Position numbers and translations under genes: made by a program
The notes under the pieces: generated by a model
Databases searched by the model: none
The model's input: the letters and a program-made list of their open reading frames with translations, nothing else
What the model was told of the DNA's origin: nothing
Part shown: positions 21,292 to 56,910 of the stretch, piece by piece
Layout of the letters: the number at the start of each line of letters is the position of its first letter
Numbering within the stretch: the stretch's first letter is position 1
From: Rhodothermales bacterium
GTDB taxonomy: Bacteria > Bacteroidota > Rhodothermia > Rhodothermales > Bin80
Reading direction: 5' to 3'
DNA length: 64,000 nt
Assembly: GCA_965216255.1 (NCBI GenBank)
Contig: OZ244148.1
Location: 4,907,962-4,971,961, forward strand

Positions 21292-21321
21292 TGTAGTGTA
21301 GCAAATAAAGTAATGATTATA
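21291..21321. repeat. IS630 left terminal inverted repeat
   Basis: See the element entry; 24/31 match to the right IR. Confidence 0.75.
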
Positions 21322-21375
21322 TCCCACGAATTGGCTATCTTCGTTGCATCGTTCACACGAATAAATGGGGGAACC

Positions 21376-23155: not shown

Positions 23156-23181
23156 TCACTAATATATTTAGGACACTGCAC
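23151..23181. repeat. IS630 right terminal inverted repeat
   Basis: See the element entry; it overlaps the transposase stop codon (23153-23155). Confidence 0.75.
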
Positions 23182-23198
23182 TAGATGATTCATTTATC

Positions 23199-24991: not shown

Positions 24992-24999
24992 AGTCCCTA

Positions 25000-28556: not shown

Positions 28557-29196
28557 CCACCTACCTCCAATTATAGCGGTGACGGAGGCATTTCATCAAC
28601 ACTCCTTTCGATCAATTTTTTCGGCCAGGCACTAGTTAGACGAGATCAGCGAAAAGGGAAATTTCAGGTTAATAATTTTTTGCAGGGACATGAGAACACA
28701 AGCAAGGGGATATAATCTGCACTACAATACACATTGTTGCGCACCTGGGTAGAAGAAGCAGAACGCTTGAGCGCAGAATAGCGCCCCACGCAATACCGTG
28801 ATAATCAGATACCTGTGAACGATCTGTGAAGCCGCTGGCAGTTCCTCGGAGCGCAACTGAAGGTTCTCGTGAACAGGGTGGGGTTGAATTCTAGGAACCG
28901 AGAATACATTGTAAAGTACAGTGTTCTGATTGTATCTTACAAATCAACTGGACAGACGAAATACCCTGAATTTACCTATGAACAAGAAAGCAAGAAATAA
29001 CCGACTGGGCGAAGTGGGCAGCGGCGAAACCGCGCTATCGCGGTAAGACACCGGATGACATGGCGCGGGCGCCTCCGGCCATTAAACCCGGAGGCCGAGT
29101 GGAAGATAAAGGAACGGCAGGGATGCAAATAGAAACAGCCGTCAATGTGCTTTCACTTCAATGCAGGAAGGTTTAAACTATCCTACATAAGCCCTA
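28557..29196 (+). promoter_or_regulatory. AT-rich non-coding leader/promoter region upstream of the giant Calx-beta gene
   Basis: About 640 bp with visibly lower GC than the rest of the window (runs such as TTAATAATTTTTTG) and no convincing ORF. No specific promoter elements could be assigned. Confidence 0.3.
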
Positions 29197-32100
29197 ATGG
29201 CTGGAGTGTGGCGTAGTTACGTAATGCCGTGTTGGCAGGCATGGCGACTTCGGCTTGGCGTGGTCATCACGGCCGTGCTGCTGAGTGGTTTGGGCGCGTG
29301 GAAGGGCGATGCGCCGGTGCTGACGGTGACGGGTGAGAGCAAGGAGGAGGCGACCGGCCTGCTGACGTTCACGCTCACGCTGGATGCTCCGAGCACGAGT
29401 GACATAGAGCTGACGTATGCTACGGCGGACGTCACGGCGACGGCGGGGGCGGACTATGTGGGAGTGCCAGCGGGCAGTTTCACGATAAAGGCGGGCACGA
29501 GGGATACGACTATAGCCGTGCAGATGAAGCACGATGGTCGTGACGAGGAGGACGAGGCGTTCGAGCTGACTGTGACGGCGGGGAATGCCGGTGAGATAGG
29601 GTCGGGTTCGGTTTTGAGGGCAGTGGGCACGATTCTGGACAATGACGACGCGCCGGTGCTGAGGGTGGCGGGTGAGACCAAGGTGGAGTCGGACGGCCTG
29701 CTGACGTTCACGCTCACGCTGGATGCTCCGAGCGGGAGTAACATAGATCTGACGTATGCTACGGAGGATATCACGGCGACGGCGGGACTGGACTATGTGG
29801 AAAAGGCGGGCAGTTTCACGATAAATGCGGGCACGCTGGAAACGACGCTGGCAGTGCGGATGAAGAACGACTGGCGTGACGAGCCGGACGAGACGTTCGA
29901 GCTGACTGTGACGGCGGGGAATGCCGGTGAGATAGGGTCGGGTTCGGTTTTGAGGGCAGTGGGCACGATCCTGGACGAGGATCGAGCGCCGGTGCTGACG
30001 GTGACGGGTGAGAGCCAAGAGGAGGCGGACGGCCCGCTGACGTTCAAGCTCACTCTGGGTGCTCGGAGCGGGTATGACATAGAGCTGACGTATGCTACGG
30101 TGGACGTCACGACGACGGCGGACCTGGACTATGAGGCAGAGCCAGCGGGCACTTTCACAATAAAGGTGGGCGAGCGGATTGTGTATTTGCCGGTGCAGAT
30201 GAAGGAAGACTTTCGTGACGAGGAGGATGAGACGTTCGAATTGACTATGGTGGCGGTGGATCCCTCTAAGGTACGGCAGAATTCGGTATTGACGGCAGTG
30301 GGGACGATTCTGGACGATGACACAGCGCCGGTGCTGACGGTGACGGGTGAGAGCCAAGAGGAGGCGGACGGCCCGCTGACGTTCAGGCTTACGCTGGATG
30401 CTCGGAGCGGGCATGACATAGGGCTGACGTATGCTACGGCGGATGTCACGGCGACGGCGGGACTGGACTATGCGTCCGTGGCAGCGGGCAGTTTCATGAT
30501 AAAGGCGGGCACGCTGGATACGACGCTGGCGGTGGGGATGAAGAATGACTTACGTGACGAGCCGGACGAGACGTTCAAGCTGACTATGGCGGCGGTGAAT
30601 GCCGGTGAGATAGGGTCGGGTTCGGTATTGACGGCAGTGGGCACGATCCTGGACGAGGACCGACCGCCGGTGCTGAGGGTGACGGGTAACAGCAAGGAGG
30701 AGGCGGACGGCCCGCTGACGTTCATGCTCAGTCTGGGTGCTCGGAGCGGGTATGACATAAAGCTGACGTATGCTACGGTGGACGTCACGGCGACAGCGGA
30801 CCTGGACTATGAGGGAGAGGCAGCGGGCAGTTTCACAATAGAGGCGGGCACGCGGTTTAAGACGTTGGCGGTGCAGATGAAGGAAGACTCACGCGACGAG
30901 GTGGACGAGACGTTCAGGCTGACTGTGGCGGCGGTGGATGCCACTAAGATACGGCAGAATTCGGTATTGACAGCAGTAGGGACGATTCTGGACGATGACT
31001 CAGCGCCGGTGCTGAGGGTGACGGGTCAGAGCAAGGAGGAGGCGGACGGCCCGCTGACGTTCACGCTCACGCTGAATGCTCCGAGCACGCGTGACATAGG
31101 GCTGACGTATGCTACGAGGGACGTCACGGCGACGGCGGGAGCGGACTATGATGGAGAGGCAGCGGGCAGTTTCACGATAAAGGAGGGCACGCGGGATACG
31201 ACGCTGGCGGTGCAGATGAAGGAAGACCTACTTAACGAGGTGGACGAGACGTTCGAGCTGACTGTGGAGGCGGTGAATACCGGTGAGATAGGGTCGGGTT
31301 CGGTCTTGACGGCAGTGGGTACGATTCTGGACGATGACTCAGCGCCGGTGCTGAGGGTGACGGGTCAGAGCAAGGAGGAGGCGAACGGCCCGCTGAGGTT
31401 CACGTTCACGCTGGATGCTGTGAGCACGCGTGACATAGAGCTGAGGTATGCTACGGCGGACGTTACGGCGACGGCGGGGGCGGACTATGATGGAGTGCCA
31501 GCGGGCAGTTTCACGATAGAGGCGGGTACGCTGGATACGACGCTGGCGGTGCAGATGAAGGAAGACGCACTTGACGAGGAGGACGAGACGTTCAAGTTGA
31601 CTGTGACGGCGGTGAAGCCCGGTGAGATAGGGTCGAGTTCGGTCTTGAGCGCTGTGGGCACGATTCTGGACAATGACGCAGCGCCGGTGCTGAGGGTGAC
31701 GGGTCAGAGCAAGGAGGAGGCGGACGGCCCGCTGACGTTTAAGCTTACGCTGGATGCTGTGAGCGCGCGTGACATAGAGCTGACGGTTACTACGGCGGAG
31801 GTCACAGCGACGGCGGAGGCGGACTATGAGGAAGCGGCAGCGGACAGGGTAACGATAGAGGCGGGCACGCAGGTTACGACGCTGGCGGTGCAGATGAAGG
31901 AAGACGCACTTGACGAGGAGGACGAGACGTTCGAGCTGACTGTGACGGCGGTGAATCCCGATGTGATAGGGCCGAGTTCGGTCTTGAGCGCTGTGGGCAC
32001 GATTCTGGACAATGACGCAGCGCCGGTGCTGAGGGTGACGGGTGAGAGCCAAGAGGAGACGAATGGCCCGCTGACATTCACGCTCACGCTGGATGCTGTG

Positions 32101-35100
32101 AGCGGGCGTAACATAGAGCTGACATATACTACGGAGGACATCACAGCGACGGCGGGACTGGACTATGAGGGAGCGGCAGCGGACAGGGTAACGATAGAGG
32201 CGGGCACGCAGGTTACGACGCTGGCGGTGCAGATGAAGGACGACGAACTTGTCGAGGAGGACGAGACGTTCGAGCTGACTGTGGCGGCGGTGGATGCCGA
32301 GGAGATAGGGGCGCGTTCGGTCCTGACGGCAGTGGGCACGATTTGGGACAAGCCCATCGTTACCTTGAGTGTGAATCCGGGCGTTGTGGCCGAAGGATCC
32401 GGAACGACAGATATATATGTAACGGCTACTCTTTCTGCCGCCCGGACTGTTCCTACGATCATTACGCTGTCGTTTGGTGGCACTGCAACCCTTGGACCTG
32501 GATCGGATTATGAAGTGGCGCCGGCATCCCCCGAGATAACGGTTCCGTTAGCCACTACATCCGGGCAGGTCGTTATTTCCTTGACTGTGGTTGACGATAC
32601 CTTTTATGAGAATATCGGGAGTGACGCCTTCGAAATCATTTTAGTGCAAGGCAGTAATACAGACGGTCTGCAGGTTGAATCGGCAGAGTTCAAGCTGAAT
32701 GACAACGACACTGAAATCCCTAGCGTTGAACTGACTGTTGAGCCGAGTTATTTGGCACTGGACGAGGGTGAGAGCGGCACGATCTCCTTTAGTCTGGTGT
32801 TGGTGGGAGAGAACCAGAACAGGTTCGAGAATGATGCCGAATTCACGGGCGACATTATACAAATTGGAGAACTGGAACACGGGGAGGACTACACGACAGA
32901 CCCGGAGGACTGGCTTCCCATAATTCTTCCGGCTGGTGCCATTTCGGTATCCAAGGACGTAGAGTTCGAGATTATTGACGATGATATTAGTGAAGGACAG
33001 TACGAATCGCTGACCTTGCTGAATATGGAGCTGGTTGCCCATAATCTGCGTATTCCCGTGAGCAGGGCAGGACACAGTACGACCATTTTATCCGTGAGTC
33101 CAAGCGACGAAGAAAACCGTCTTAATATAGCAATCGAACCCACAGGGGGAATCCGCGAGAACGCAGGGCCGACTGAAATAGAACTGTTTGCTACCCCATT
33201 TTTTACAGGGAGTGAATTTGAAGACCCTCCCGAAGAAGATCTTACGATACGTTTCTGGATAGAGCAAATCCCTGGCGGGGCACTCAGCCCAGATGATTAT
33301 TCGATTGTTCCTGAGGTTATTCCTCGAGTCGATTGGACTCAGGGAGAGACCGAGTCCGAACGTGTCACATTAACGGTAACGCCTGTAGCGGATGATGTCC
33401 ATACCGAGAATTACCATGAGCGTATACGCATTAAAGGCCAAGTGACGAATGCTTCGGGGTATCAGGGTCTTACCACCACATCCCTGAGTATTATCAATGT
33501 TTCGCCGCCGGCATTGAGAACGGTCGGTATTGATCGGCCCCCCAACCATCCGACAATCTATTTCTTTGGGGAAGAGTTAACGGCGAAAATGAGCTTTTCG
33601 CAGCCGGTTGGATTGCGGGGCCAAGGCATGACCTTTACTGTCGATCTTGATAGTGGTCCTGTTGTCGCCAAATGTTTGCCAGGGGGTACTGGTTACGGCG
33701 CTCATATATCGTGCACCTATACCATACAGGCAGGAGACTCGGATGTCGATGGTGTGGAAATCAAAGCCGGGGCCATCAATCTAGGTGGCGCCAGTATGGT
33801 CGATGAGGAAGGCAATGCTGTTACGATTAATTTTACGATTCTTGACAAGTATTTGAAGCGGTATGATTACCAGGTTCAGGGTACGAGCTATGTGTATGAG
33901 CTAGTGCCGTCGGTGGAGAGCTTTCAGGAAGGTCAGAACGCTACTAGGGAGGTTGTTGTCACAGCTACGGAGAAGTTGGGCAAGGTTAGAGAATTCAATG
34001 CCGCGATAGAGCTTTTCTTCAGGAATGAGACGACCAGCGATCAGGATTATGTGGTGACGGGGGAGCGGACCATCAACATTGTGGCCGGAGAAACCACCGG
34101 CAGCACGACGCTTGAGATCACGCCGACGTTCGACGGAATTAAGGAAGGCCACGAGGAGGTCTTCTTCCTGGACGGGGACGCGGGTCACCAGGCTGTAGAG
34201 CCCTATGAGATGAAGATACTGGATGCGCCGGACATCTTTCTGGCGGTGAGTCCTGAGACCATCCAGGAAGATGGTGATGCCGAAACGGTGACGATAACGG
34301 CGAGCCTTCCAGCGAATGCTATCACGTTTGATGAGGGCATTGTGGTGAATCTGCGGCAGGCGGGCACGGCAACGAAAGGAAGCGATTTCACCATCGGGTC
34401 TTTGCCAGAAGTGCGCATTTTAGCGAACGAGACTTCGGGATTCGGCAGTGTTGTAGTAACACCGATCAATGATAATCTGGTGGAGGGGGATGAGACGATT
34501 TTTTTCTATGGCTCAACGGCAAGCCTCGGAGTAACCGGAACCAATCTGGAGCTCCAGGACGACGATAGCGAGGCGGGCATAATCTTGTCGGTGGACAATA
34601 GCCGGGTTGGGGAAGCTGATGGCGAGACTGTTATCGAGGTGACGGCGACAGCGACAGTGACGTTTCCGCTGGGTGTTGACGTGAGTTTGGACCTCGGTGG
34701 CCAGGCAACGGAAGACACAGACTATACCAGGCACTGGGATCCGGGAGCGACCATCAGTATTGCTCGGGGCGCATCTACCGGAACGACGAATCTGGAGATC
34801 ACGCCGGTAGACGACGATATTCTGGAAGGCGACGAGACGATCGTTGTGCAGGGCACCGCGGACAACGGTGTGTCTGTAGAGGTGGCGCCGATCACATTGT
34901 CGGACAATGATCGCGCAAGAATATTGAAGATCACCGGGACTCTGCAGGTGGTTGAGGGGACGGGTGACGAAACTGGTAGCAATAATGGGCATACCGATAT
35001 CACTGTCAGCTTGAGCCCACGGCCAGGAAGTGATAATATTTCTGTGCCTGTGACCTTTATCGCCGGTACGGCAACGGGCGGAGGGCAATTAGCTTACCGG

Positions 35101-39468: not shown

Positions 39469-39632
39469 GTATAGAGGATGCGGATCCGGTGACGGAGGGA
39501 GAGGATGCGGTGTTTGCAGTGAAGCTGAGCGTGCCATAGGGGCAATTTGGCTGTGGCCGTGAGGCAGGGGCACGATAGAGGACAATGACGATGCGCCGAC
39601 GGTGAGTATAGAGGATGCGGATCCGGTGACGG
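39445..39632 (+). other. Scrambled mosaic of repeat fragments that breaks the giant ORF
   Basis: At 39444/39445 the repeat jumps from ...GAGGTGACG straight to ACAATGACGATGCGCC, out of frame. The 39530-39575 stretch is a patchwork of 10-30-nt pieces of the unit (GTGCCATAGGGGCAATTTGGCTGTGGCCGTGAGGCAGGGGCACG). At 39632/39633 GTGACGG joins CGACATCGG. Confidence 0.8.
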
Positions 39633-48600: not shown

Positions 48601-51600
48601 TGCAGAGGCGGTGATAGAGGGAGGAAATGCGACATTCGCTGTGACGCTGAGCGAGGCAAGCGGCCAGGCAGTGGTGTTGACGTATGCGACACGTGATGTT
48701 ACGGCGATCTCACCGGGGGACTATGCGGCGGAGCCGAACGGCAGCATGACGATAGAGGCAGGCAAGACGGATACGACGATAGTGGTGCAGACGATAGATG
48801 ACACAGAAAAGGAGGAGGAGGAGACGTTTGAGGTGGTATTGACTTCAGCGGCGGGAGCAGGGATAGAGGCGGGAGGATCGGTGGGCAGGGGCACGATTCG
48901 GGACAACGATACGGCACGGACGGTGCGTATAGCCGATGCGGAGGTGGTGACGGAAGGCGAGGTAGCGACGTTTGTGCTGACACTCAGTGGGGCAAGCAAC
49001 CAGGCTGTGGTGGTGGGCTATGCCACGGAAGATGTTACGGCGACCTCACCGGGGGACTATGTGGCGGAGCCGAACGGCAGCGTGACGATAGCGGTGGCAG
49101 AGACGGAGGTCGTGATAGAGGTGCAGACGACGGATGACACAGAAAGGGAGGATAGAGAGACCTTTGTGGTTCGGTTGGGCGACGTGGCGGGTGCGACCAT
49201 AGAGCAAGGGAGCGGGGTGGCAGAAGGGACCATAGAAGATAATGAGGATATCTCTGTACGCATAGCAGACGTTCGGGTGGCGGAAGACGCGGGAGTGGCG
49301 GTTTTTGTGGTGACATTGAGCGCGGAGAGTGATGCGGTGGTGACGGTAGCATACGCTACGGCGGATGGGTCGGCGGAGGCGGGGCTGGACTATAGTTCGC
49401 GCAGTGGCACGTTGACGTTTGCGGTGGGTGATACGGAAAAGGAGATCAGGGTATCGATCACGGACGACGCATTGGATGAGGAGGCCGAGACGTTTGAGGT
49501 ACGGCTGAGTGCCCCTGTGGGGGCGGTGTTGTCGAACGTGGTAGCGACGGGGACGATTTTGGACAACGAGCCCTCGCTGCGTATTGACGATGTAACCGTG
49601 GCAGAGGCAGCAGGTGAGGCTGTTTTCAAGGTTACGCTTAGTCCGCAGAGCAATTGGGAGGTGACGCTAGCGTACGCCACGGCGGATGGGTCGGCGGAGG
49701 CGGGGCTGGACTATTCGTTGGATAGCGGCACGTTGACGTTTGCGGTGGGTGATACCGAGAAAGAGATCAGGATACCGATCACGGACGACGCACTGGATGA
49801 GGAGGACGAGACGTTTACGGTGACGCTGACGAATCCTTCGTCTGCCGGAGTGACGCGGCCGGTGGCTACAGGGACGATAGAGGATGATGATGCTGCGTCA
49901 TCGTTGATAGTAGAGGACTTGGAGGTGTTTGAGCACGAAGAGACCGCGTCAATCAGCGTATTGTTGACCTCAGAGAGCCAGGAGACGGTAGTGGTTCGTT
50001 ATGTGACCGAGGATGTTACCGCGACGGCAGCAGCAGAGGACTATCTCTCAAGCGAAGGCACGCTGGAGTTTGCGCCGGGGCAGAGTCTTGGTCAAATCGA
50101 GGTTGGGATATTGGAGGACGGGCATGTGGAAGGGGACGAGACCTTTCGAGTATTTCTCAGCGATGCGGTGCATGCGGGCATTGCAGATGGCGAGGCCGTG
50201 GTGACGATACGGGACAACGATGTGTGGTCGGAGCTTCGGATAGGCGATGCGATTGCAGCGGAAGGTGGGGGTACGGCGACGTTTGCGGTTTCGCTGACTC
50301 CGGCGGCTGTGGAGATGGTGACGGTAGGGTATGCCACGGCGGACGGGTCGGCGGAGGCGGGGCTGGACTATACGTCGGGCAGTGGGACGTTGACGTTTTC
50401 GGCGGCAGAGACGAGGAAGACGTTCACGGTTGATGTGTTGGAAGACACGGAGGTTGAGCAGAACGAGACGTTTACGGTGGAATTGAGTGATGTCATGGGT
50501 GCGCGGATAGCGCTAGGGATAGGAGTGGGAACGATACTGGACAACGACGGAATCTCGACACTGACCGTAGCGGATATGGAGGTTGGAGAGGAGATAGGTA
50601 CGGCCCGGGTACGGGTGGTGCTGAGTCCTGCTCGAGGCGAGGAAGTCACGGTAGCGTATGCTACTTCGGACGGCACGGCGCGGCAGGGGGAGGATTACAC
50701 GGCCGTGACGAATACGCTCAGCATACCGATAGGGGGGGAGGAAGGCTGGATACCGATAGAGATAACGAACGACGGTATTGTGGAGCCTGACGAGGCGTTT
50801 ACGGTGACGCTGTCGGCTCCGACGCATGCGATTTTGGGGAACGAGACGGCGACGGTGGCCATTGTGGACGATGATCTGCCCGTGTTGAGTATCAACAATC
50901 CCTTTGCACCGGAGCACCAGGGGATCATGGTGTTTATGCTGAGCCTGGATCAGGTCCGTGATGAGGCCGTGACGGTGAATTACGCTACCATGGACGTGTC
51001 TGCGACGGCGGGCGCCGACTATGTATCGCATGCCGGGATAGCCCGGATAGCGGCGGGAGCGTTACGGCAGGAGATCGAGGTAGGGATCATAGAGGACGCA
51101 GCGCTGGAGTCTTCGGAGACGTTCGAGATGGTCTTGAGTGATGCCAGGGGGGCGGAGATAGGAGTAGCCGTGGGAAGGGGGACGATACTGGATAACGATG
51201 AATACAACATGGCGATACGCGATGTGGAGGTAGAGGAGGACGAGGGATCGGCCGTATTCACGGTAGAGCTGGATTATCGCAATACGGACCAGGAGGTATC
51301 GGTATCGTACAGGACGCTAGCGGGCACGGCGGAGGAGGATGAGGACTTTCACGGAGAGTCTGGGCGGTTGGTATTTGCGCCCGGGGCATTGCGGCGGCAG
51401 ATACAGGTCTCGATAGTTGATGATGCGGAGCACGAGGCCGACGAGGCGTTTTCAGTGGTACTCAGCCAGGTGGAGAACGCTACGCTGGTGGATGCGGAGG
51501 CTACGGCGACGATACGGGACAATGATTTACGGAAGGTGGATATCACGGGAGTGACGGTGGTAGAGGGGGAAGGGGTAGCCAGATTTGCTGTGAATCTTGA

Positions 51601-54445
51601 TGACGCCACTCTTAAGCCTGTCATCTTAGTCTACCAGACCCTCGAAGGTACGGCGGAGTCTGGCGCGGACTATCATTCGACGCGAGGGGCTCTGACATTT
51701 GAAAGGGGAGAGATAGCCAAGGTCATCGAGGTGCCGGTGGTAGATGATGGCATAGACGAGCCGGACGAGACGTTTACGGTGCTGATAGGCGGAGCGCTGA
51801 ATGCGGAATTGATGCGGTCTGTAGCCACGGCAACGATACTCGATGACGATGAGGCGCCGGTGGTGGAAGTGGCGGGGGATGTAACCGTGGGCGAAGGGGA
51901 TGCAGCGGCCGTCTTCACGGTGACGCTGCGCGGCAGGAGTGCATGGCCTGTGGAGGTGGAATACGAGACGGAGGACATCACGGCCAGGGAGGGTCTGGAC
52001 TACACATCTGCATCCGGGAGGCTGAGCATACCACCGGGTTTTGGAACGGGTACGCTTACCGTGGTTGTGCTTGAGGATGAGGTGGATGAGCCCGATGAGG
52101 CGTTTTTGCTGCGGCTTACCGGTGCAGAGCGGGCGACGTTGGGATCCGCGCAGGCACGGGGCATCATCATGGACAATGATGCTACCCCCGCACTGCGGAT
52201 AGATGATGTGACGGTAGTGGAAAGCGAGGCAAGTGCGGTGTTTACGGTAGGAATGAGTCCTGCCAGTTCGGAGCGTGTGCTGGTAAACTATGCGACTTCA
52301 GACGAGACGGCGACGGCGGGGCTGGATTATGTGGATACGAATGGCACGTTGGCGTTGGAGCCGGGAGAGGTGGAAGCGCAGATCACGGTGCCGGTGGAGT
52401 TGGACGGTGTGGACGAGCTGGATGCAGAGACCTTTCTGGTTACGCTAAGTGCGGCGGTTGCTGCCGAAATAGCCGACGGAGAAGGTCGGGGCACCATATT
52501 GGACGACGACGAGCCGGTATCGCTGAGTATCTTTGATGTAACGGTGGCGGAGGATGCAGGTATGGCGAACTTTGTGGTGGGGATGAGTCAGGTGAGCGGA
52601 AAATTCGTGAGCGTCAATTTTGCGACTTCGGATGAGACGGCGCAGCAGGGTAGCGACTATACGGCCTCGAATGGCATCATAGTGTTTGAGCCGGGAAGTC
52701 AGACGGGCAAGATAGCCGTCTCTATTGTGGACGATGTTCTGGACGAGAGTGCGGAGGAGACCTTCAAGGCGACGCTAAGCAATGCAAGCAATGCCGTCAT
52801 AGCGAGGGGAGAGGCCACGGGGACGATTTTGGACAACGAGGGGCAGCCATTGCTGCGGGTAGACGACGTAACGGTGAGTGAAGAGGATGGTGTTGCTTCG
52901 TTTCGGGTGTGGCTATCGGAGCCGAGCAGCAGGATGGTGATGGTGGGCTACCGCACCGTGGATGGTAGCGCCGAGGCCGGAGCAGACTATGAGGGTCAGC
53001 AAGGGACGGTGACGTTTGAGCCTGGACAGATCGAGGAGACCATAGCGGTAAAGTTGATAAGGGATGGCCGGGACTGGGCCACAGAGACATTTACCCTGGC
53101 GCTGGAATCAGCCACCCATGCACAGATAGAGGACCCTGCAGCGACGGCCACGATTGTGGAGGAAGGATCGGTGCTGGGCGACGTAATGGCACAATGGCTG
53201 GCCCGCTTCAGCAGGACGTCAGCCGGTCATGTGGCCAGTGCACTGGAAGATCGCGTGCAGTGGCTCACGTCTGCACCGCACTGTACGCCACGGATGGGCA
53301 GTGGCATCAAGCATTTCCGATACATGAATCCGTCATGGGATCCGTCGGTCGGCGAATTGTTTTCGGGCTGTTCGATGGCCCTGAAATCGGCGAGAGGGCA
53401 GGGTGAGATGAGTCTCTGGGGGCGCGGCGCGTATACGCGCTTTAATGGCAGAGACGGGCAGCTAAGTATCAAGGGCAATGTTTCGACGGCGGCGTTAGGC
53501 GTGGATTACCTGTCGCCGCGAGGCTGGTTGACCGGAGTGCTGTTGGCCCATAGCCGGGGCGACGGCACGTTTGCGGCGGTGGATCTGGAAGGTGAAGCAC
53601 GCTCTAGCCTCACGGGGATCTATCCGTACGTGCGATACGGCAATACAAGGCGTTCCGTCTGGGGCATGGCCGGGTACGGGACGGGCACGGCGCTGCTGGA
53701 ATCGGAAGACAGCCTGGAGTCTGCGCTGGATGCTGTCATGGGGTTAGCCGGCATGCGTGTTGGGCTTCTGAAAATGGGACAAGCTCATGTCTCGTATGAG
53801 GCGGACGCACTGGTGGTTCGCACGACGGCGGACAATCTGGACGTACTCGTGCACCGTGTGCGTGCGGGCCTGGAGGGCGTCTTGCGTCTGAGCCAGGGGT
53901 GGAGCCCGTATGTGGAGGCTTCCGTGCGGCAGGATGGAGGAGATGCCGAGACCGGTATCGGCGTGGAAGTAGCCGGAGGCGTACGCTATGCTGGCAATGC
54001 GCTGAAAGCGGAAGTAACCTCCCGGGGGCTGCTGGCCCATGCCTCGACAGGATTCGCGGAATGGGGCGTAGCCGGGGCTCTGCACTATGGCAACGCCGCG
54101 GGCCTGGGTCCTGCGGCATCCATACGGCCCTCGTGGGGCACAGCGCACTCGGGTGGCATGCAAGCGTTGTGGCGATCGGCATCCATAGAAGACGCGCTGC
54201 ATGGAATATCGGGTGCAAGAAGATTGGAGCTGGCGCTCGGATATGGCATGCCCTCCATAGTGGGCACGGGAGTCGCAAGGCCGGTGGCAGCAATGACCTT
54301 GCAGGAGCAAGGCAGAGAATACAGGCTGGGCTACGAAGTGGCTATGCGTCGCTACCTGAACCTGTCCATGGAGGCCGTGGCGCGCACTGTAGCCGTGAAC
54401 AAACGCAACTACGGCGTCAGTGTCCGCGGAACCATGCGCTGGTAG
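39602..54445 (+). CDS. Giant Calx-beta tandem-repeat protein, C-terminal 4,947 codons with autotransporter-like beta-barrel (continuation of 29197-39468 in another frame; no credible own start)
   Basis: The frame opens inside a repeat unit, so GTG 39602 is only the first possible start codon. About 40 further Calx-beta units follow, then a non-repeat C-terminal domain of about 430 aa ending ...VSVRGTMRW. Confidence 0.8.
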   Translation: MSIEDADPVTATSDATATAGQDYDAVVGGSLVIPAGKTDTTIVVGTIDDALSEEAETFVLTLEEPEGADLAVGAAVGTGTIEDNDDAPTVSIGDAPLVTEGVDAVFAVKLSEASGREVTVPYATSDATATAGQDYDAVVGGSLVIPAGKTDTTIVVGTIDDALSEETETFVLTLEEPEGADLAVGAAVGTGTIEDNDDAPTVSIGDAPSVTEGVDAVFAVKLSEASGQEVTVPYATSDATATAGQDYDAVVGGSLVIPAGKTDTTIVVGTIDDALSEETETFTLTLQDPVGADLAVGAAVGTGTIEDNDDAPTVSIEDAPSVTEGVDAVFAVKLSEASGREVTVPYATSDATATAEQDYDAVVGGSLVIPAGKTDTTIVVGTIDDALSEEAETFVLTLEEPEGADLAVGAAVGTGTIEDNDEAPVVSIEDAPLVTEGVDAVFAVKLSEASGQVVTVPYATSDATATAGQDYDAVVGGSLVIPAGKTDTTIVVGTIDDALSEEAETFVLTLEEPEGADLAVGAAEGTGTILDNDDAPTVSIEDAPSVTEGVDAVFAVKLSVASGQEVTVPYATSDATATAGQDYDAVVGGSLVIPAGKTDTTIVVGTTDDVLSEETETFVLTLQDPEGADLAVGGAEGTGTILDNDDAPTVSIEDAPSVMEGVDAVFAVKLSEASGQKVTVPYATSDASATAGQDYDAVVGGSLVIPAGKTDTTIVVGTIDDALSEETETFTLTLQDPVGADLAVGAAVGTGTIEDNDDAPVVSIEDAPSVTEGVDAVFAVKLSEASGREVTVPYATSDATATAGQDYDAVVGGSLVIPAGKTDTTIVVGTIDDALSEETETFTLTLQDPVGADLAVGAAVGTGTIEDNDDAPVVSIEDAPSVTEGVDAVFAVKLSEASGREVTVPYATSDATATAGQDYDAVVGGSLVIPAGKTDTTIVVGTIDDALSEEAETFVLTLEEPEGADLAVGAAVGTILDNDGAPTVSIEDAPLVTEGVDAVFAVKLSEASGREVTVPYATSDATATAEQDYDAVVGGSLVIPAGKTDTTIVVGTIDDALSEEAETFVLTLEEPEGADLAVGAAVGTGTIEDNDEAPVVSIEDAPLVTEGVDAVFAVKLSEASGQVVTVPYATSDATATAGQDYDAAVGGSLVIPAGKTDTTIVVGTIDDVLSEETETFVLTLQDPVGANLAVGAAEGTGTILDNDGTPTVSIEDAPSVTEGVDAVFAVKLSVASGQEVTVPYETSDATATAGQDYEAAVGGSLVIPAGKTDTTIVVGTSDDALSEETETFVLTLQDPVGADLAVGAVVGTGTILDNDDAPILSIEDADPVTEGVDAVFAVKLSEASGQEVTVSYTTVDVTATAGQDYDAVVGGSLVIPAGKTDTTIVVGTTDDDLDEEDTETFTLVLSAPLNATLDEDEGTGTILDNDDAPTVSIEDAPSVTEGVDAVFAVKLNVASALEVTVPYETSDATATAGQDYDAVVGGSLVIPAGKTDTTIVVGTTDDVLSEETETFVLTLQDPVGANLAVGAAEGTGTILDNDGTPTVSIEDAPSVTEGVDAVFAVKLSVASGQEVTVPYETSDATATAGQDYEAAVGGSLVIPAGKTDTTIVVGTSDDALSEETETFVLTLQDPVGADLAVGAVVGTGTILDNDDAPILSIEDADPVTEGVDAVFAVKLSEASGQEVTVSYTTVDVTATAGQDYDAVVGGSLVIPAGKTDTTIVVGTTDDDLDEEDTETFTLVLSAPLNATLDEDEGTGTILDNDDAPTVSIEDAPSVTEGVDAVFAVKLNVASALEVTVPYETSDATATAGQDYEAAVGGSLVIPAGKTDTTIVVGTTDDVLSEETETFVLTLQDPVGANLAVGAAEGTGTILDNDGTPTVSIEDAPSVTEGVDAVFAVKLSVASGQEVTVPYETSDATATAGQDYDAAVGGSLVIPAGKTDTTIVVGTIDDVLPEETETFTLTLQDPVGANLAVGAVVGTGTILDNDDAPTVSIEDAPSVTEGVDAVFAVKLSEASGQEVTVSYTTVDVTATAGQDYDAVVGGSLVIPAGKTDTTIVVGTTDDDLDEEDTETFTLVLSAPLNATLDEDEGTGTILDNDDAPTVSIEDAPSVTEGVDAVFAVKLNVASALEVTVPYETSDATATAGQDYDAVVGGSLVIPAGKTDTTIVVGTIDDVLSEETETFVLTLQDPVGANLAVSAAVGTGTILDNDDAPTVSIEDAPSVTEGVEAVFAVKLSVASALEVTVPYATSDVTATAGQDYEAAVGGSLVIPVGKTDTTIVVGTIDDAVSEETETFVLTLQDPVGADLAVGAAEGTGTIEDNDEVPTVSIEDAPSVTEGVEAVFAVRLSEASGREVTVPYATVDATATAGQDYEAAVGGSLVIPAGKTDTTIVVGTTDDVLSEETETFVLTLQDPVGADLAVGAAEGTGTILDNDGAPTVSIEDAPSVMEGVDAVFVVRLSVTSGQEVTVPYATSDATATAGQDYEAAVGGSLVIPAGKTDTTIVVGTTDDAVSEDTETFILTLQDPVGADLAVGAAEGTGTIEDNDDAPTVSIEDAPAVTEGGDAVFAVKLSVASGQKVTVPYATSDATATGGQDYEAVVGGSLVIPAGKTDTTIVVGTIDDAVSEDTETFILTLQDPVGADLAVGGAEGTGTIEDNDDAPTVSIEDADPVTEGVAAEFTVTLSEVSGRDVVVPYVTSDGTANSPGDYVAEPSGSVKIKAGETEVTIEVHTIDDVEQEEEETFAVTLSDPVGAALAVGGEAATGTILDNDGAPTVSIEDAPPVTEGGKAEFVVRLSVASGQEVTVPYATSDATATAGADYEAETAGSLTIEAGRTDTTIVLQTLDDDLNEESETFTVTLGEPVGAELAVGGEDGTGTILDNDDAPTVSIEDAPPVTEGGEAVFAVTLSGVSGRQVVVAYATGDGTATGGQDYDAAVGGSLVIPAGKADTTIAVQTIDDAEKEETETFEVLLGDVQGATIEEGRGVAEGTIEDNEGVSVRIADAEAVIEGGNATFAVTLSEASGQAVVLTYATRDVTAISPGDYAAEPNGSMTIEAGKTDTTIVVQTIDDTEKEEEETFEVVLTSAAGAGIEAGGSVGRGTIRDNDTARTVRIADAEVVTEGEVATFVLTLSGASNQAVVVGYATEDVTATSPGDYVAEPNGSVTIAVAETEVVIEVQTTDDTEREDRETFVVRLGDVAGATIEQGSGVAEGTIEDNEDISVRIADVRVAEDAGVAVFVVTLSAESDAVVTVAYATADGSAEAGLDYSSRSGTLTFAVGDTEKEIRVSITDDALDEEAETFEVRLSAPVGAVLSNVVATGTILDNEPSLRIDDVTVAEAAGEAVFKVTLSPQSNWEVTLAYATADGSAEAGLDYSLDSGTLTFAVGDTEKEIRIPITDDALDEEDETFTVTLTNPSSAGVTRPVATGTIEDDDAASSLIVEDLEVFEHEETASISVLLTSESQETVVVRYVTEDVTATAAAEDYLSSEGTLEFAPGQSLGQIEVGILEDGHVEGDETFRVFLSDAVHAGIADGEAVVTIRDNDVWSELRIGDAIAAEGGGTATFAVSLTPAAVEMVTVGYATADGSAEAGLDYTSGSGTLTFSAAETRKTFTVDVLEDTEVEQNETFTVELSDVMGARIALGIGVGTILDNDGISTLTVADMEVGEEIGTARVRVVLSPARGEEVTVAYATSDGTARQGEDYTAVTNTLSIPIGGEEGWIPIEITNDGIVEPDEAFTVTLSAPTHAILGNETATVAIVDDDLPVLSINNPFAPEHQGIMVFMLSLDQVRDEAVTVNYATMDVSATAGADYVSHAGIARIAAGALRQEIEVGIIEDAALESSETFEMVLSDARGAEIGVAVGRGTILDNDEYNMAIRDVEVEEDEGSAVFTVELDYRNTDQEVSVSYRTLAGTAEEDEDFHGESGRLVFAPGALRRQIQVSIVDDAEHEADEAFSVVLSQVENATLVDAEATATIRDNDLRKVDITGVTVVEGEGVARFAVNLDDATLKPVILVYQTLEGTAESGADYHSTRGALTFERGEIAKVIEVPVVDDGIDEPDETFTVLIGGALNAELMRSVATATILDDDEAPVVEVAGDVTVGEGDAAAVFTVTLRGRSAWPVEVEYETEDITAREGLDYTSASGRLSIPPGFGTGTLTVVVLEDEVDEPDEAFLLRLTGAERATLGSAQARGIIMDNDATPALRIDDVTVVESEASAVFTVGMSPASSERVLVNYATSDETATAGLDYVDTNGTLALEPGEVEAQITVPVELDGVDELDAETFLVTLSAAVAAEIADGEGRGTILDDDEPVSLSIFDVTVAEDAGMANFVVGMSQVSGKFVSVNFATSDETAQQGSDYTASNGIIVFEPGSQTGKIAVSIVDDVLDESAEETFKATLSNASNAVIARGEATGTILDNEGQPLLRVDDVTVSEEDGVASFRVWLSEPSSRMVMVGYRTVDGSAEAGADYEGQQGTVTFEPGQIEETIAVKLIRDGRDWATETFTLALESATHAQIEDPAATATIVEEGSVLGDVMAQWLARFSRTSAGHVASALEDRVQWLTSAPHCTPRMGSGIKHFRYMNPSWDPSVGELFSGCSMALKSARGQGEMSLWGRGAYTRFNGRDGQLSIKGNVSTAALGVDYLSPRGWLTGVLLAHSRGDGTFAAVDLEGEARSSLTGIYPYVRYGNTRRSVWGMAGYGTGTALLESEDSLESALDAVMGLAGMRVGLLKMGQAHVSYEADALVVRTTADNLDVLVHRVRAGLEGVLRLSQGWSPYVEASVRQDGGDAETGIGVEVAGGVRYAGNALKAEVTSRGLLAHASTGFAEWGVAGALHYGNAAGLGPAASIRPSWGTAHSGGMQALWRSASIEDALHGISGARRLELALGYGMPSIVGTGVARPVAAMTLQEQGREYRLGYEVAMRRYLNLSMEAVARTVAVNKRNYGVSVRGTMRW
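43000..46015 (+). repeat. Higher-order repeat: three near-identical 1005-nt blocks (3 Calx-beta units each)
   Basis: GGACAATGATGGCACGCCGACGG recurs at 43201, 44206 and 45211. Antisense ORF sets recur at +1005 (42999/44004/45009; 43693/44698/45703; 43815/44820/45825). Confidence 0.9.
53160..54445 (+). other. C-terminal autotransporter-like (type Va) translocator domain of the giant protein
   Basis: The repeats stop. A helix-like linker (VLGDVMAQWLARFSRTSAGHVASALEDRVQWL) is followed by alternating-hydrophobic strands rich in G/Y/R (SLWGRGAYTRFNGRDG, GVDYLSPRGWLTGVLLAHSRGDG, LTGIYPYVRYG, YRLGYEVAMRRYLNLSMEA). The terminal residues are ...RGTMRW, an aromatic C-terminus. Confidence 0.6.
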
Positions 54446-56083: not shown

Positions 56084-56203
56084 CGCGGCAAGCTGCGCAC
56101 GGAGGACGTGAGGTTCCGCGGAAGAGGGGGAGGAATGTGCTCCGGGCTGTATGATTGTTCAACAACGCCTGCACATGCATTGTTCCACGTTTCCACATAC
56201 TAT

Positions 56204-56551
56204 TTATCCCGATTTCCGGCTCTTAACCGCATACCGGCGCCGGTATTTTACGGACTTCAGCGACACTCCCTCCAGTAACATCACCATCTGCGTCCACGTC
56301 GGCATATCCTCTTTCGGCAGCTCAAACGTACCCGCTTCAAGCCTTTTGTAAAACAAGGCGAAGCCGTTTCGGTCCCACGAAAGCGCCTTTAGATGGCTCC
56401 GCCTCCTGTTGACGAACACAAAGACGTCCCCCGACATGGGATCCCGCTTCATGTCGCTTTTCACCAAGGCGCACAGGCCGTCAAAGCTCTTGCGCATGTC
56501 GGCTGGCGGCCGGTAAAAGAAATACCGGTGCGAAGGCCCCAGTCCGATCAT
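56204..56551 (-). CDS. tnpB: IS66 Orf2 accessory protein (IS66 TnpB)
   Basis: Intact at 115 aa, with FFYRPPADMRKSFDGLCALV and VFVFVNRRRSHLKALSWDRNGFALFYKRLEAGTF. Its ATG overlaps the tnpA stop (ATGA). Confidence 0.85.
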   Translation of the reverse strand: MIGLGPSHRYFFYRPPADMRKSFDGLCALVKSDMKRDPMSGDVFVFVNRRRSHLKALSWDRNGFALFYKRLEAGTFELPKEDMPTWTQMVMLLEGVSLKSVKYRRRYAVKSRKSG

Positions 56552-56840: not shown

Positions 56841-56910
56841 GCCATCCAGGCTTTGAATCCTCGGGTCTATGAGTAATCTCCCGAGAAATCGTCACCTTTT
56901 CCAGATGGGT

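What the first reader, a model, noticed from the sequence alone, without database searches (positions are those of the whole stretch)
29197..54445. A 25-kb Calx-beta mega-gene (about 8,400 codons, on the order of 70 Calx-beta modules)
Seen in sequence: from the signal-like N-terminus to the terminal ...RGTMRW, the + strand carries one continuous repeat architecture, interrupted only at 39445-39632. The parts are 9 type-A units, a diverged lower-GC central segment, about 35 near-identical type-B units, about 14 more diverged units, and a non-repeat C-terminal domain. Each unit fits the Calx-beta pattern (V.V.D......EG.....F.V.LS..S...V.V.Y.T.D.TA.AG.DY......L.I.AG......V.T.DD...E..ETF.L.L). The module count is my estimate from length divided by the roughly 112-aa period.

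Inference: this looks like a Ca2+-binding, highly acidic surface fibre or adhesin. The gene is bracketed by IS clusters on both sides, which marks it as accessory and plastic.
Basis: partly seen in the sequence, partly recalled or inferred. Interest (0 to 1): 0.7.

Follow-up and report, generated by a model that had tools for sequence, protein, structure and literature searches.

The report
Giant Calx-beta autotransporter-like surface fibre
This 25-kb stretch is one giant gene for a calcium-binding surface fibre of about 70 bead-like domains, anchored in the outer membrane by an autotransporter-like barrel; it is broken by a 188-base scar in this assembly, and a sister strain carries a version half as long.

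Summary
The + strand 29197-54445 carries one repeat architecture in two reading frames: ORF1 of 3,423 aa and ORF2 of 4,947 aa. They are separated only by a scrambled patch at 39445-39632. Pfam Calx-beta domains, and a unit HMM built here finds about 70.

It is a predicted alpha-helix followed by an outer-membrane beta-barrel related to autotransporter translocators (PF03797), but longer, with about 18 predicted strands. So the gene is a type V-like, Ca2+-dependent surface fibre in a Rhodothermales genome.

An orthologue in a sister genome (P0243, barrel 97% identical) is a single ORF across the equivalent region, with about 38 units. The window's break is therefore derived: either a recent lesion or an assembly artefact. 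Repeat number differs about two-fold between close relatives.

dN/dS falls from about 1.0-1.3 in the distal half to 0.18 in the barrel, while the frame is kept open.

The barrel plus Calx-beta family is large (5,654 cluster representatives). It spans many phyla and is multi-copy in MAGs, several of them from sponge microbiomes. I found no paper describing it.

Verdict: a real feature, and a new variant of a known kind (giant adhesins). Whether the gene is intact and how many repeats it truly has remain unverified.

The parts
28907..29196 (+). 5' leader of the giant gene, within a low-GC intergenic region (about 28407-29196).
   Evidence: GC is 0.49 at 28-29 kb. The stretch from about 28907 onward aligns with the region upstream of the orthologue in L081. 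The consensus scan found no sigma-70-like promoter on the + strand.
29197..29301 (+). Signal-peptide-like N-terminus: MAGVWRSYVMPCWQAWRLRLGVVITAVLLSGLGAW. The start is at 29197 or at the conserved Met at 29224.
   Evidence: Translation. MPCWQAWRLR(L/H)GV(V/L)ITA..LLSGLGAW is conserved in the sister gene. No signal-peptide predictor was available, so this is read from the sequence.
29302..32346 (+). Nine type-A Calx-beta units (A1-A9), 336-339 bp each, 77-90% identical to their neighbours.
   Evidence: TRF reports 9.0 copies. Unit HMM E 1e-15 to 1e-22. Identity matrix.
32344..35298 (+). Central diverged, lower-GC segment (985 aa): a chain of about 8-9 beta-sandwich domains, some recognisable as Calx-beta. 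This is the fastest-evolving part.
   Evidence: Pfam finds Calx-beta here. The AlphaFold model is all-beta, pLDDT 72.9. Foldseek returns only generic multi-sandwich chains. The best database homologues are 34-36% identical. dN/dS is 1.28 against the orthologue.
35299..39333 (+). Twelve units, C1-C12. C1-C3 are diverged. C4 (36307-36645) is a stray type-A unit, 84% identical to A6. C5-C12 grade into the type-B consensus.
   Evidence: TRF array 36828-39444.
39334..39847 (+). The lesion: three truncated units.
- U1, 39334-39443: the first 110 bp of a unit.
- U2, 39444-39580: a 137-bp scrambled unit carrying a TAG.
- U3, 39581-39847: a unit lacking 69 bp.

This is equivalent to one unit with a 188-bp insert (39445-39632) and a 10-nt loss, net +178 nt. 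ORF1 stops at TGA 39466-39468.
   Evidence: The 5' variant of U2 and U3 (GAGGATGCGGATCCGGTGACGG) recurs exactly only at the start of unit B24 (47591). The scrambled 28-mer is unique in the window and absent from JGI metagenomes.
39848..47560 (+). Twenty-three near-identical type-B Calx-beta units (B1-B23), 336 bp each, each 92-100% identical to its closest other unit.
   Evidence: TRF reports 26.4 copies.. The longest exact repeat is 911 bp.
43202..46216 (+). A three-unit (1,005-bp) super-repeat present three times (B11-13, B14-16, B17-19). B11 = B14 and B12 = B15 at 100% identity.
   Evidence: The protein repeats are visible.
47561..53158 (+). Seventeen progressively diverged membrane-proximal Calx-beta units: B24-B26 intermediate, B27-B40 diverged.
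   Evidence: Collinear with the orthologue at 93% DNA identity. dN/dS 0.49 then 0.32.
53171..53269 (+). Predicted 33-residue alpha-helix (residues 10-42 of the C-terminal domain). It is followed by a low-confidence linker that holds the only two Cys residues of ORF2.
   Evidence: AlphaFold model, pLDDT 87-94 over the helix. Cys count. Sequence.
53363..54445 (+). C-terminal outer-membrane beta-barrel, autotransporter-like, with 18-19 predicted strands. It ends ...VRGTMRW and then the stop codon.
   Evidence: PF03797 scores 24.7 bits (cutoff 26, E 2.4e-5). Relatives score 29-42 bits. Model pTM 0.78. The top Foldseek hits are Hbp, EspP, EstA, AIDA-I and BrkA beta-domains.
20294..28406 (.). Upstream IS cluster:
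- truncated TnpB, 20294-21073 (+)
- IS630-like pieces, 21313-23155 (+)
- ISNCY transposase fragments, 23872-24852 (-) and 27531-28406 (-)
- IS1634, 25143-26729 (-)
   Evidence: Pfam and NCBIfam. The ISNCY copy is 97.8% identical to one next to the orthologue.
54633..56900 (-). Downstream IS66-family element. The transposase is split into two ORFs (54633-54989 and 55016-56083), with small accessory ORFs alongside. It abuts a truncated hsdR (56923-57723).
   Evidence: Pfam. Similarity to the orthologue's locus ends about 69 bp after the stop codon, at 54514.

Best explanation
What it is. The region is a single gene for a giant, very acidic cell-surface fibre: about 864 kDa if read through, pI about 4. 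It belongs to an uncultured Rhodothermales bacterium, probably sponge-associated.

Proposed mechanism.
1. A Sec-type signal peptide takes the protein across the inner membrane.
2. The C-terminal module inserts into the outer membrane through BAM. It ends in a terminal aromatic residue. This module is a 33-residue helix plus an autotransporter-related beta-barrel, enlarged to about 18 strands.
3. The N-terminal passenger is threaded out, as in type V secretion.
4. Outside the cell, about 70 Calx-beta beta-sandwich domains fold in series. They are stiffened by Ca2+ bound at the conserved acidic inter-domain linkers (D-N/D-D) and E-F loops (DDxxxExxExF). The result is a rod a few hundred nm long.
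5. The membrane-proximal units act as a conserved stalk.
6. The near-identical middle array is a length-setting spacer that grows and shrinks by unequal recombination.
7. The distal type-A units and central segment are the exposed, fast-evolving business end, used for binding or recognition.

State in this assembly. The gene is cut by a 188-bp scrambled patch that brings a frameshift and stops. As written it cannot make an anchored product. The patch is either a recent inactivating lesion or an assembly or polishing artefact.

Shown versus inferred.
- Shown: architecture, domain identities, barrel homology and fold, copy-number difference, selection gradient.
- Inferred: secretion route, Ca2+ binding, rod shape, adhesive role, host association.
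For: Architecture.
- ORFs and translation.
- 62 Pfam Calx-beta domains, about 70 by the unit HMM.
- Acidic motifs in 55 of 61 units (E-F loop) and 60 of 61 units (linker); pI 4.05.

Barrel.
- PF03797 scores 24.7 bits in the window.
- PF03797 scores 29-42 bits, above the gathering score, in 10 relatives. It covers profile positions 1-207 of 255 and is followed by about 150-175 further barrel residues.
- 11 of 52 family members match PF03797.
- The AlphaFold model (pLDDT 79.7, pTM 0.78) shows a helix and then 18-19 strands.
- The best solved folds are the type Va translocators Hbp, EspP, EstA, AIDA-I and BrkA.

Single gene.
- Orthologue P0243 (4,471 aa, barrel 97% identical) runs uninterrupted from type-A units to the barrel.
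- The signal peptide is conserved upstream of it.

Selection.
- dN/dS is 1.02, 1.28 and 1.17 in the distal parts, and 0.49, 0.32 and 0.18 towards the barrel.
- Flanking housekeeping genes give 0.12-0.39.
- Over 4.6 kb of the fast part there are 546 differences but no stop and only whole-codon indels. Neutral simulations give a mean of 13 stops, and 0 of 2,000 runs were stop-free.

Family and organism.
- 5,654 representatives.
- At least 545 genomic loci across many phyla, 4-9 copies in individual Rhodothermales MAGs, ORFs of 500 to more than 3,800 aa, and 69 of 79 with at least one Calx unit.
- The window's PtsI is closest to Rhodothermales.
Against: - The window's own PF03797 score is below Pfam's cutoff.
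- No NCBIfam autotransporter model matches.
- The family profile finds no solved barrel by sequence.
- hhalign against the Ag43 beta-domain is null.
- Foldseek TM-scores are modest (TMq 0.3-0.4), and 22-strand TonB-dependent receptors score similarly. The barrel is therefore not a canonical 12-strand translocator.
- Strand number is read from a DSSP string, not from coordinates.
- To my knowledge (not searched), no characterised type Va protein has a tandem beta-sandwich passenger, let alone one of this length.
- The gene is not intact as written.
- The orthologue also carries a 1-nt frameshift in a G run near its 5' end.
- dN/dS of about 1 in the distal half is also what relaxed constraint would give.
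- There are no expression, localisation or Ca2+-binding data.
Confidence: 0.7

Rival explanations
1. The break at 39445-39632 is real. In this strain the gene is a recent pseudogene, or an 'off' state produced by illegitimate recombination inside the array. ORF1 would then make an unanchored periplasmic product, ORF2 has no signal peptide, and no fibre is displayed.
For: - The flank agrees with an independent assembly at 98.57% identity with only 5 gaps in 14 kb, so base-level quality looks high.
- The junctions show short shared motifs, such as GAC and GGTGACGG, of the kind slippage uses.
- The surroundings are full of broken genes: a split IS66 transposase, truncated hsdR, TnpB and ISNCY.
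- The orthologue also has a frameshift.
Against: - There is only one lesion in 25 kb. Both halves are otherwise open, and the gene shows purifying selection near the barrel.
- The scrambled 137-bp unit needs several independent small events at one spot, which looks more like a bad consensus than biology.
- No independent copy of the junction was found.
Confidence: 0.4
2. The break, and possibly the size of the type-B array, is an assembly or polishing artefact of a long-read metagenome assembler working through a near-identical tandem array. On this reading the real gene is intact, and its copy number may differ from what is written.
For: - The lesion sits at the proximal edge of the near-identical array. 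It carries a sequence variant that otherwise occurs exactly only at B24 (47591), at the distal edge of the array, as a mis-closed graph loop would give.
- The scrambled unit matches nothing else.
- The sister contigs carry metaMDBG-style names with 4x coverage. metaMDBG is the assembler used in a sponge holobiont project of the same type (PMC12648040).
- The orthologue is contiguous here.
Against: - Units differ by SNPs and the longest exact repeat is only 911 bp, so accurate reads of at least 10 kb should resolve the array.
- Base-level agreement with another assembly is good.
- The window's own assembler, read type and coverage are unknown.
Confidence: 0.4
3. The C-terminal barrel is only a membrane anchor or porin-like domain, not a translocator. 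The repeat region would reach the surface by another route, or stay periplasmic. Alternatively the protein is a structural coat or decoy layer rather than an adhesin.
For: - The barrel is larger than any solved type Va translocator and resembles them only modestly.
- To my knowledge (not searched), tandem beta-sandwich domains are not what characterised type Va autotransporters export as passengers.
- No ligand-binding domain was found in the central segment.
Against: - The order of parts (signal peptide, passenger, helix, C-terminal barrel) is the type Va order.
- Relatives score above threshold on PF03797.
- A fibre of this length cannot fit in the periplasm.
- Pfam reported no RTX/T1SS or T9SS C-terminal signal domain in ORF2.
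- The Calx-beta unit next to the helix is conserved across the family.
Confidence: 0.12

Closest known systems
Classical (type Va) autotransporters, such as Ag43, AIDA-I, EspP, Hbp and BrkA
   Same: The order is signal peptide, passenger, alpha-helix, C-terminal outer-membrane barrel, ending in an aromatic residue. Family members match Pfam PF03797. These translocators are the best fold matches.
   Different: The passenger is a chain of about 70 Calx-beta beta-sandwiches, not a beta-helix. The barrel region is about 345 aa with 18-19 predicted strands, against 12 in the solved structures. There is no profile similarity to the Ag43 barrel. The size is about 8,400 aa.
Giant T1SS/RTX adhesins (LapA, MpIBP, SiiE)
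   Same: They are very large, acidic, Ca2+-dependent rods of tandem Ig-like, cadherin-like or Calx-beta-like domains, with variable repeat number. A weak LapA-domain Pfam match lies over some units. The literature is in PMC12153261 and PMC7616799.
   Different: Those proteins have C-terminal RTX secretion signals and N-terminal retention modules, and no barrel of their own. Here there is an N-terminal signal peptide and a C-terminal barrel, and Pfam detected no RTX repeats.
BapP of Pseudoalteromonas tunicata (PMC12153261)
   Same: A Sec signal peptide followed by tandem Calx-beta/BIg sandwiches. It is proposed to be a Ca2+-dependent outer-membrane adhesin of a marine, host-associated bacterium.
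   Different: BapP has 12 repeats and an N-terminal beta-propeller, and no C-terminal barrel is described in the passages I read. Here there are about 70 repeats and an autotransporter-like barrel.
Inverse autotransporters (type Ve: intimin, invasin)
   Same: Type V proteins whose passengers are tandem Ig-like domains (from my own knowledge of the family).
   Different: The topology is reversed: barrel at the N-terminus, passenger at the C-terminus. Here the barrel is C-terminal.
Calx-beta 'eukaryote-like' proteins of sponge symbionts, and sponge aggregation factors
   Same: PF03160 is reported as enriched across sponge microbiomes and phyla (PMC9531527, PMC11706023). The host's own aggregation factors are Calx-beta-rich (PMC5400394, PMC11670116). 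Several relatives of this barrel come from Ircinia sponge MAGs.
   Different: Those reports count domains. I found no paper that links Calx-beta to an autotransporter-like barrel. The host of this window's organism is not documented.

Membership tests
Calx-beta domain proteins (Pfam PF03160) | Significant match to the PF03160 profile above the gathering score. | tested here: met
   735 and 1,985 bits against a cutoff of 27. There are 21 + 41 stretches, and the best stretches cover profile positions 1-118 and 4-119 of 119. The family profile also hits NCX1 CBD structures at E 2.6e-22.
Calx-beta domain proteins (Pfam PF03160) | Acidic Ca2+-coordinating clusters as in the NCX CBDs: an E-F loop of the form DDxxxExxE and terminal Asp residues. 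| tested here: met
   The regex finds the acidic E-F loop motif in 55 of 61 units and an acidic D-N/D-D linker in 60 of 61. This shows that the motifs are present. It does not show that Ca2+ is bound.
Type Va autotransporter (Pfam PF03797 beta-domain) | C-terminal domain matches the autotransporter beta-domain profile above the curated cutoff. | tested here: inconclusive
   - Window: 24.7 bits against a cutoff of 26, E 2.4e-5, covering only profile positions 1-93 of 255.
- Homologues 31-49% identical to it: 29-42 bits, covering up to positions 1-212.
- 11 of 52 family members match.
- No NCBIfam match.
Type Va autotransporter (Pfam PF03797 beta-domain) | 12-stranded barrel with an alpha-helical linker in the pore. 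| tested here: not met
   The model shows a 33-residue helix followed by 18-19 DSSP strands over about 360 residues. Relatives have about 150-175 barrel residues beyond the PF03797 match. TM-scores to 12-strand translocators, normalised to the target, are 0.4-0.64. The position of the helix in the pore could not be checked, because no coordinates were available.
Type Va autotransporter (Pfam PF03797 beta-domain) | N-terminal Sec signal peptide and a single polypeptide carrying both passenger and translocator. | tested here: inconclusive
   A signal-like N-terminus is present and conserved, but no predictor was run. The polypeptide is single in the orthologue and broken in the window.
Type Va autotransporter (Pfam PF03797 beta-domain) | Sequence-profile similarity to a characterised translocator (Ag43). 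| tested here: not met
   hhalign of family alignment A1 against the Ag43 C-terminal 349 aa gives probability 0.2%, E 0.32. A profile search of PDB sequences finds only the Calx-beta part.
T1SS RTX adhesins (LapA/MpIBP type) | C-terminal RTX nonapeptide repeats and a T1SS signal, with an N-terminal retention module. | tested here: not met
   Pfam reports no RTX or haemolysin-type Ca-binding repeats in either ORF. The C-terminus is a barrel. The only related hit is a weak 'LapA domain' match that overlaps Calx units.
Sponge-symbiont 'eukaryote-like protein' set | Encoded by a bacterium living in a sponge. | not testable with these tools
   The source sample of the window is unknown. The closest contigs come from ENA analysis ERZ25067264, with no habitat given. 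Some relatives are from Ircinia sponge MAGs (the jk18x bins). Other relatives carry names of lineages I know as sponge symbionts (Entotheonella, Porisulfidus). That rests on my own knowledge and was not tested here.

The most novel reading that the evidence does not exclude
The helix plus enlarged (about 18-strand) barrel, always preceded by a Calx-beta unit, defines an undescribed subclass of type V secretion. It would be specialised for exporting chains of Ca2+-folding beta-sandwich domains. It has spread horizontally among unrelated phyla living in sponges.

On this reading, Calx-beta fibres of this kind engage or mimic the host's own Calx-beta aggregation factor. Their fast-evolving distal ends and variable length would mediate host recognition, or evasion of host phagocytosis or of phages.
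Probability: 0.2. Interest if true: 0.8.

Novelty: new variant of a known kind. Interest (0 to 1): 0.55.

Why it matters
Giant repeat adhesins are common, so the gene's size alone is not remarkable. What adds value:

1. The anchoring module. It ties Calx-beta repeats to an autotransporter-related but enlarged barrel. I found no description of that combination in the searchable literature. The family is nevertheless large, with 5,654 cluster representatives, and it is multi-copy in MAGs of many phyla.

2. A possible mechanism for a known statistic. Calx-beta domains are reported as enriched in sponge microbiomes (PMC9531527, PMC11706023). This family could be one of the surface structures behind that enrichment.

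3. A natural experiment. Two near-identical genomes carry versions with about 38 and about 70 units. The distal end evolves at dN/dS of about 1.0-1.3 with the frame kept open, and the stalk and barrel are conserved. This is the pattern expected of a surface molecule in an arms race or a recognition system.

4. A question for type V secretion. It asks whether a wider barrel lets the pathway export beta-sandwich chains.

The caveats are substantial. There are no expression data. Gene integrity and copy number are unverified. The host association is inferred.

Tried and rejected
- Exact-protein look-ups of three window proteins found nothing, so the window's own contig is not in the collection.
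- The sister contig carrying the upstream flank (L080) ends at window position 14013 and so gives no second view of the giant gene from that side.
- A search with the central segment found no orthologue in the word-indexed database; the best hit was 34-36% identical. The orthologue appeared only in the exhaustive representative search with the barrel.
- NCBIfam has no model for the barrel.
- A PDB sequence search with the family profile returned only NCX Calx-beta domains.
- hhalign against the Ag43 beta-domain was null.
- Foldseek on the central-segment model returned only generic multi-sandwich proteins at TM below 0.2, so no ligand-binding domain was identified.
- A composite transposon was rejected. 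The two flanks share no sequence, and there is no tRNA integration site.
- The promoter and terminator scans were uninformative.
- The lesion-specific 28-mer is absent from JGI metagenomes, and there is no close relative of the barrel there.
- Accession-prefix searches of the literature for the MAG records found nothing.
- The first dN/dS control for PtsI used a wrong coordinate offset. It was redone correctly.
- The long antisense ORFs (up to 1,080 aa) were dismissed on their spacing at the repeat period; this was a judgement, not a test.
Full report
**1. The observation**

ORF listing shows two very long + strand ORFs and nothing else that interrupts them: 29197..39468 (3,423 aa, frame 1) and 39602..54445 (4,947 aa, frame 2) (translations).

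GC skew is strongly positive (0.3-0.38) across the whole span. GC drops to 0.50-0.57 at 32-36 kb.

Pfam calls Calx-beta (PF03160) 21 times in ORF1 and 41 times in ORF2, at E 1.7e-225 and 0.

Tandem Repeats Finder reports three main arrays:
- 339-bp period, 9.0 copies, at 29311-32343.
- 339-bp period, 7.8 copies, at 36828-39444.
- 336-bp period, 26.4 copies, at 39632-48497.

An HMM that I built from the regular units finds the following:
- 9 type-A units.
- About 8 weak hits in the central segment.
- 12 further units in ORF1.
- A truncated unit on each side of the break.
- 40 full units in ORF2.

The protein is 18.5-19% Asp+Glu and 3.7-5% Lys+Arg. The combined pI is 4.05 and the mass about 864 kDa.

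Only about 24 units (C12, B1-B23) are at least 90% identical to another unit. The upstream eight (C5-C12) are 76-97% identical to their closest unit, and C5-C10 stay below 90%. I also found a stray type-A unit at 36307-36645, and a 1,005-bp three-unit super-repeat present three times at 43202-46216, with two units duplicated at 100% identity.

**2. The break**

Aligning the pieces to a normal 336-bp unit shows three defective units:
- U1, 39334-39443: the first 110 bp of a unit, then a jump to a new unit start.
- U2, 39444-39580: 137 bp, scrambled, carrying a TAG.
- U3, 39581-39847: a unit lacking 69 bp.

Put another way, one unit has received 188 bp of repeat-derived junk (39445-39632) and lost 10 nt. 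The net change is +178 nt, which accounts for the shift from frame 1 to frame 2. Removing the 188 bp alone does not repair the gene.

The 5' variant shared by U2 and U3 (GAGGATGCGGATCCGGTGACGG) otherwise occurs exactly only at the start of unit B24 (47591), at the far end of the near-identical array. The scrambled 28-mer is unique in the window and absent from JGI metagenomes.

This geometry fits two readings. It could be a mis-closed repeat loop in an assembly graph followed by a poor consensus. It could also be a genuine illegitimate-recombination scar.

Two facts argue that the assembly is good at base level:
- The window's first 14 kb agrees with an independent contig at 98.57% identity with only 5 gaps.
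- The longest exact repeat in the gene is 911 bp, well within the reach of accurate long reads.

I cannot decide between lesion and artefact without reads, and I rate them about equal.

**3. The C-terminal domain**

The last 433 aa are not repeats.

Sequence evidence:
- Pfam gives a just-sub-threshold match to the autotransporter beta-domain PF03797: 24.7 bits against a cutoff of 26, E 2.4e-5, covering profile positions 1-93.
- NCBIfam gives nothing.
- Sixty homologues were found, the best 46% identical. Many combine Calx-beta with this domain.
- Ten relatives scanned individually exceed Pfam's cutoff for PF03797 (29-42 bits). They cover up to profile positions 1-212 of 255 over about 200 residues, and then continue for another 150-175 residues.
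- Across the alignment, 11 of 52 members match PF03797 and 9 match OMP_b-brl.

Structure evidence:
- AlphaFold2 with this alignment gives pLDDT 79.7 and pTM 0.78. The model has a 33-residue helix (residues 10-42), a low-confidence linker containing the only two cysteines of ORF2, and then 18-19 beta-strands running to the terminal ...RGTMRW.
- Foldseek against the PDB ranks autotransporter translocators first: Hbp 3aeh (E 3.8e-6, TM 0.56 on the target), EspP, EstA, AIDA-I, and BrkA (TM 0.64). They are interleaved with 22-strand TonB-dependent receptors.

Negative results:
- A profile search of PDB sequences finds only the Calx-beta part.
- hhalign against the E. coli Ag43 beta-domain is null.

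My reading is that the module is homologous to autotransporter beta-domains but extended by roughly six strands. It works like a type Va translocator in the order of its parts. It does not meet the 12-strand definition of the solved members.

**4. The N-terminus and the central segment**

The N-terminus (MAGVWRSYVMPCWQAWRLRLGVVITAVLLSGLGAW...) has the look of a Sec signal peptide. It is conserved in the orthologue from MPCWQAW onward. No predictor was available.

The central 985 aa have only distant relatives, at most 36% identity. The model is an all-beta chain of sandwich domains, pLDDT 72.9. Its only fold matches are generic multi-sandwich proteins. No distinct ligand-binding or enzymatic domain was found.

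**5. Organism and context**

The upstream genes are ordinary chromosomal genes: penicillin amidase, an SNF symporter, polyprenyl synthetase, HPr/PtsI, PGI, an Omp85/PD40 protein, a BamB-like protein and SbcC. The named hits closest to PtsI are Rhodothermales or Rhodothermia. One ENA contig is 98% identical.

Both flanks of the giant gene are IS-ridden.

Upstream:
- a truncated TnpB
- IS630-like pieces
- two ISNCY transposase fragments
- an IS1634

Downstream:
- an IS66 element with a split transposase, which abuts a truncated hsdR of a type I R-M system

The two flanks share no sequence, and the window has no tRNA.

**6. The orthologue**

An exhaustive search with the barrel found P0243: 4,471 aa, with the barrel 97% identical. 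It lies on contig ctg828196_4x_l of ENA analysis ERZ25067264, the same sample as the contig that matches the window's left flank.

DNA alignment shows two collinear blocks:
- L081 9895-17464 with window 31003-38586, 86% identity.
- L081 15508-23485 with window 46540-54514, 93% identity.

P0243 is one uninterrupted ORF. It runs from type-A units through the central segment and about 24 further units to the barrel. This has three consequences:
- The two window ORFs are parts of one gene, and the break is derived.
- The window has about 28 more mid-array units and about 5 more type-A units. That is about 70 against about 38, subject to the accuracy of both assemblies.
- The neighbourhoods differ. 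In the sister genome the gene lies between hisD plus IS elements on one side, and an aminotransferase gene, bshC and IS110 on the other. One ISNCY copy is shared at 97.8% identity.

The orthologue's called start is internal. Upstream, in another frame, lie the conserved signal peptide, an extra Calx-like domain that the window lacks, and a type-A unit. The frames are joined by a G6 run where the window has G5. At 4x coverage this may be a read error.

**7. Selection**

I used Nei-Gojobori estimates with codon bootstrap.

| Region | dN/dS | 95% CI |
|---|---|---|
| Type-A units | 1.02 | 0.69-1.57 |
| Central segment | 1.28 | 1.01-1.63 |
| C1-C5 | 1.17 | 0.80-1.80 |
| B24-B26 | 0.49 | 0.28-0.98 |
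| B27-B40 | 0.32 | 0.24-0.43 |
| Helix + barrel | 0.18 | 0.09-0.34 |

Eight flanking housekeeping genes give dN/dS 0.12-0.39 and dS 0.016-0.056. The giant gene's dS is 0.07-0.13.

The fast part is not decaying. Over 4,605 aligned nt there are 546 differences, no stop, and eight indels that are all whole codons. Neutral simulations give a mean of 13 stops, and none of 2,000 runs was stop-free.

So the frame is under selection while the amino-acid sequence of the distal half turns over. This is consistent with diversifying selection on an exposed tip and conservation of the stalk and anchor. One sequence pair cannot separate positive selection from strongly relaxed constraint.

**8. The wider family**

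- The barrel has 5,654 relatives (E <= 1e-3; 1,364 at <= 1e-30) among cluster representatives at 50% identity. The 150 best-scoring range from about 300 to 4,557 aa.
- In species-representative genomes, at least 545 loci matched. The best 79 are MAGs of Rhodothermales, Latescibacterota, Binatia, Vicinamibacterales, Alpha- and Gammaproteobacteria, Entotheonella, Porisulfidus and others. Individual Rhodothermales MAGs carry 4-9 copies.
- Their ORFs span 500 to more than 3,800 aa, with seven running off the 10-kb flank. Of the 79, 69 have at least one Calx unit, and the Rhodothermales ones have 3-11.
- A Calx-beta unit directly precedes the helix in the family profile.
- The 'jk18x' bins among these loci are Ircinia sponge MAGs. 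The paper that describes them, and a second paper, both report PF03160 enrichment in sponge microbiomes (PMC9531527; PMC11706023).
- Sponge aggregation factors are themselves Calx-beta proteins (PMC5400394 and PMC11670116, listed).
- I found no paper that connects Calx-beta with an autotransporter barrel.

That the window's organism lives in a sponge is an inference from these relatives and from MAG names I recognise. It is not a tested fact.

**9. Mechanism, comparison and verdict**

The most likely mechanism runs as follows:
1. Sec export.
2. BAM-dependent insertion of the enlarged autotransporter-like barrel.
3. Passage of the passenger to the surface.
4. Ca2+-dependent folding of about 70 Calx-beta sandwiches into a rod. 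Acidic E-F-loop and linker motifs are present in 55 and 60 of 61 units.
5. A conserved proximal stalk, a recombining spacer array that sets the length, and a fast-evolving distal end that binds or is recognised.

It resembles RTX adhesins such as LapA and MpIBP in form, but it lacks their secretion signals. It resembles type Va autotransporters in topology, but it differs in passenger fold and barrel size. I file it as a new variant of a known kind.

Confidence by claim:
- The architecture and the single-gene origin: high.
- The type V-like route: moderate.
- The adhesive or host-recognition role: lower.
- Whether the gene is intact in this organism: undecided.

Noticed in passing
window 56923-63682 (- strand): A type I restriction-modification operon comprises hsdM (62093-63682) and hsdS (60055-61668). 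The hsdS ORF is read as one with an N-terminal nucleotidyltransferase domain. An NTase-substrate-binding (HEPN-like) gene lies at 61665-62078, so an MNT/HEPN-type pair appears embedded in the operon. hsdR survives only as a 266-aa N-terminal fragment (56923-57723), cut off at the IS66 element.
   Followed up: partly
window 54633-56083 (- strand): The IS66-family transposase is split into two ORFs of 118 and 355 aa, 26 nt apart. This is a frameshift or a stop, so the element is probably inactive, or there is a local sequence error.
   Followed up: no
window 20294-21073 (+): A truncated TnpB (RNA-guided endonuclease family) ORF of 259 aa matches positions 77-344 of the 389-position model. No adjacent TnpA was detected.
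   Followed up: no
window 23205-24987 and L081 29836-31623: An ISNCY-family element is 97.8% identical between the window and the sister genome but sits at different positions relative to the giant gene. A second, diverged fragment lies at 27531-28406. This points to recent IS activity and rearrangement around the locus.
   Followed up: partly
L081 about 9470-10044, against window 29197-29310: The sister gene has an extra Calx-like domain between the signal peptide and the first type-A unit. It resembles the first domain of the window's central segment. In the window, the type-A array starts directly after the signal peptide.
   Followed up: partly
window 53273-53368 (C-terminal domain residues 44-75): The only two cysteines of the 4,947-aa ORF2 lie about 30 residues apart in the low-confidence linker between the helix and the barrel (...APHC...FSGC...). 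Both are kept in the orthologue. They could form a disulphide-closed loop.
   Followed up: no
window 11282-14476 (+): A 1,064-aa protein combines PD40 beta-propeller repeats, a peptidase-MA-like region and a C-terminal Omp85-superfamily match. In the sister contig the gene caller fused it with the upstream PGI gene.
   Followed up: no
window 58422-59741 (-) and 57163-58410 (+): Two overlapping ORFs of more than 400 aa lie between hsdS and the hsdR fragment, where GC is 0.65. Neither has a Pfam or NCBIfam match, and it is unclear which one is the real gene.
   Followed up: no
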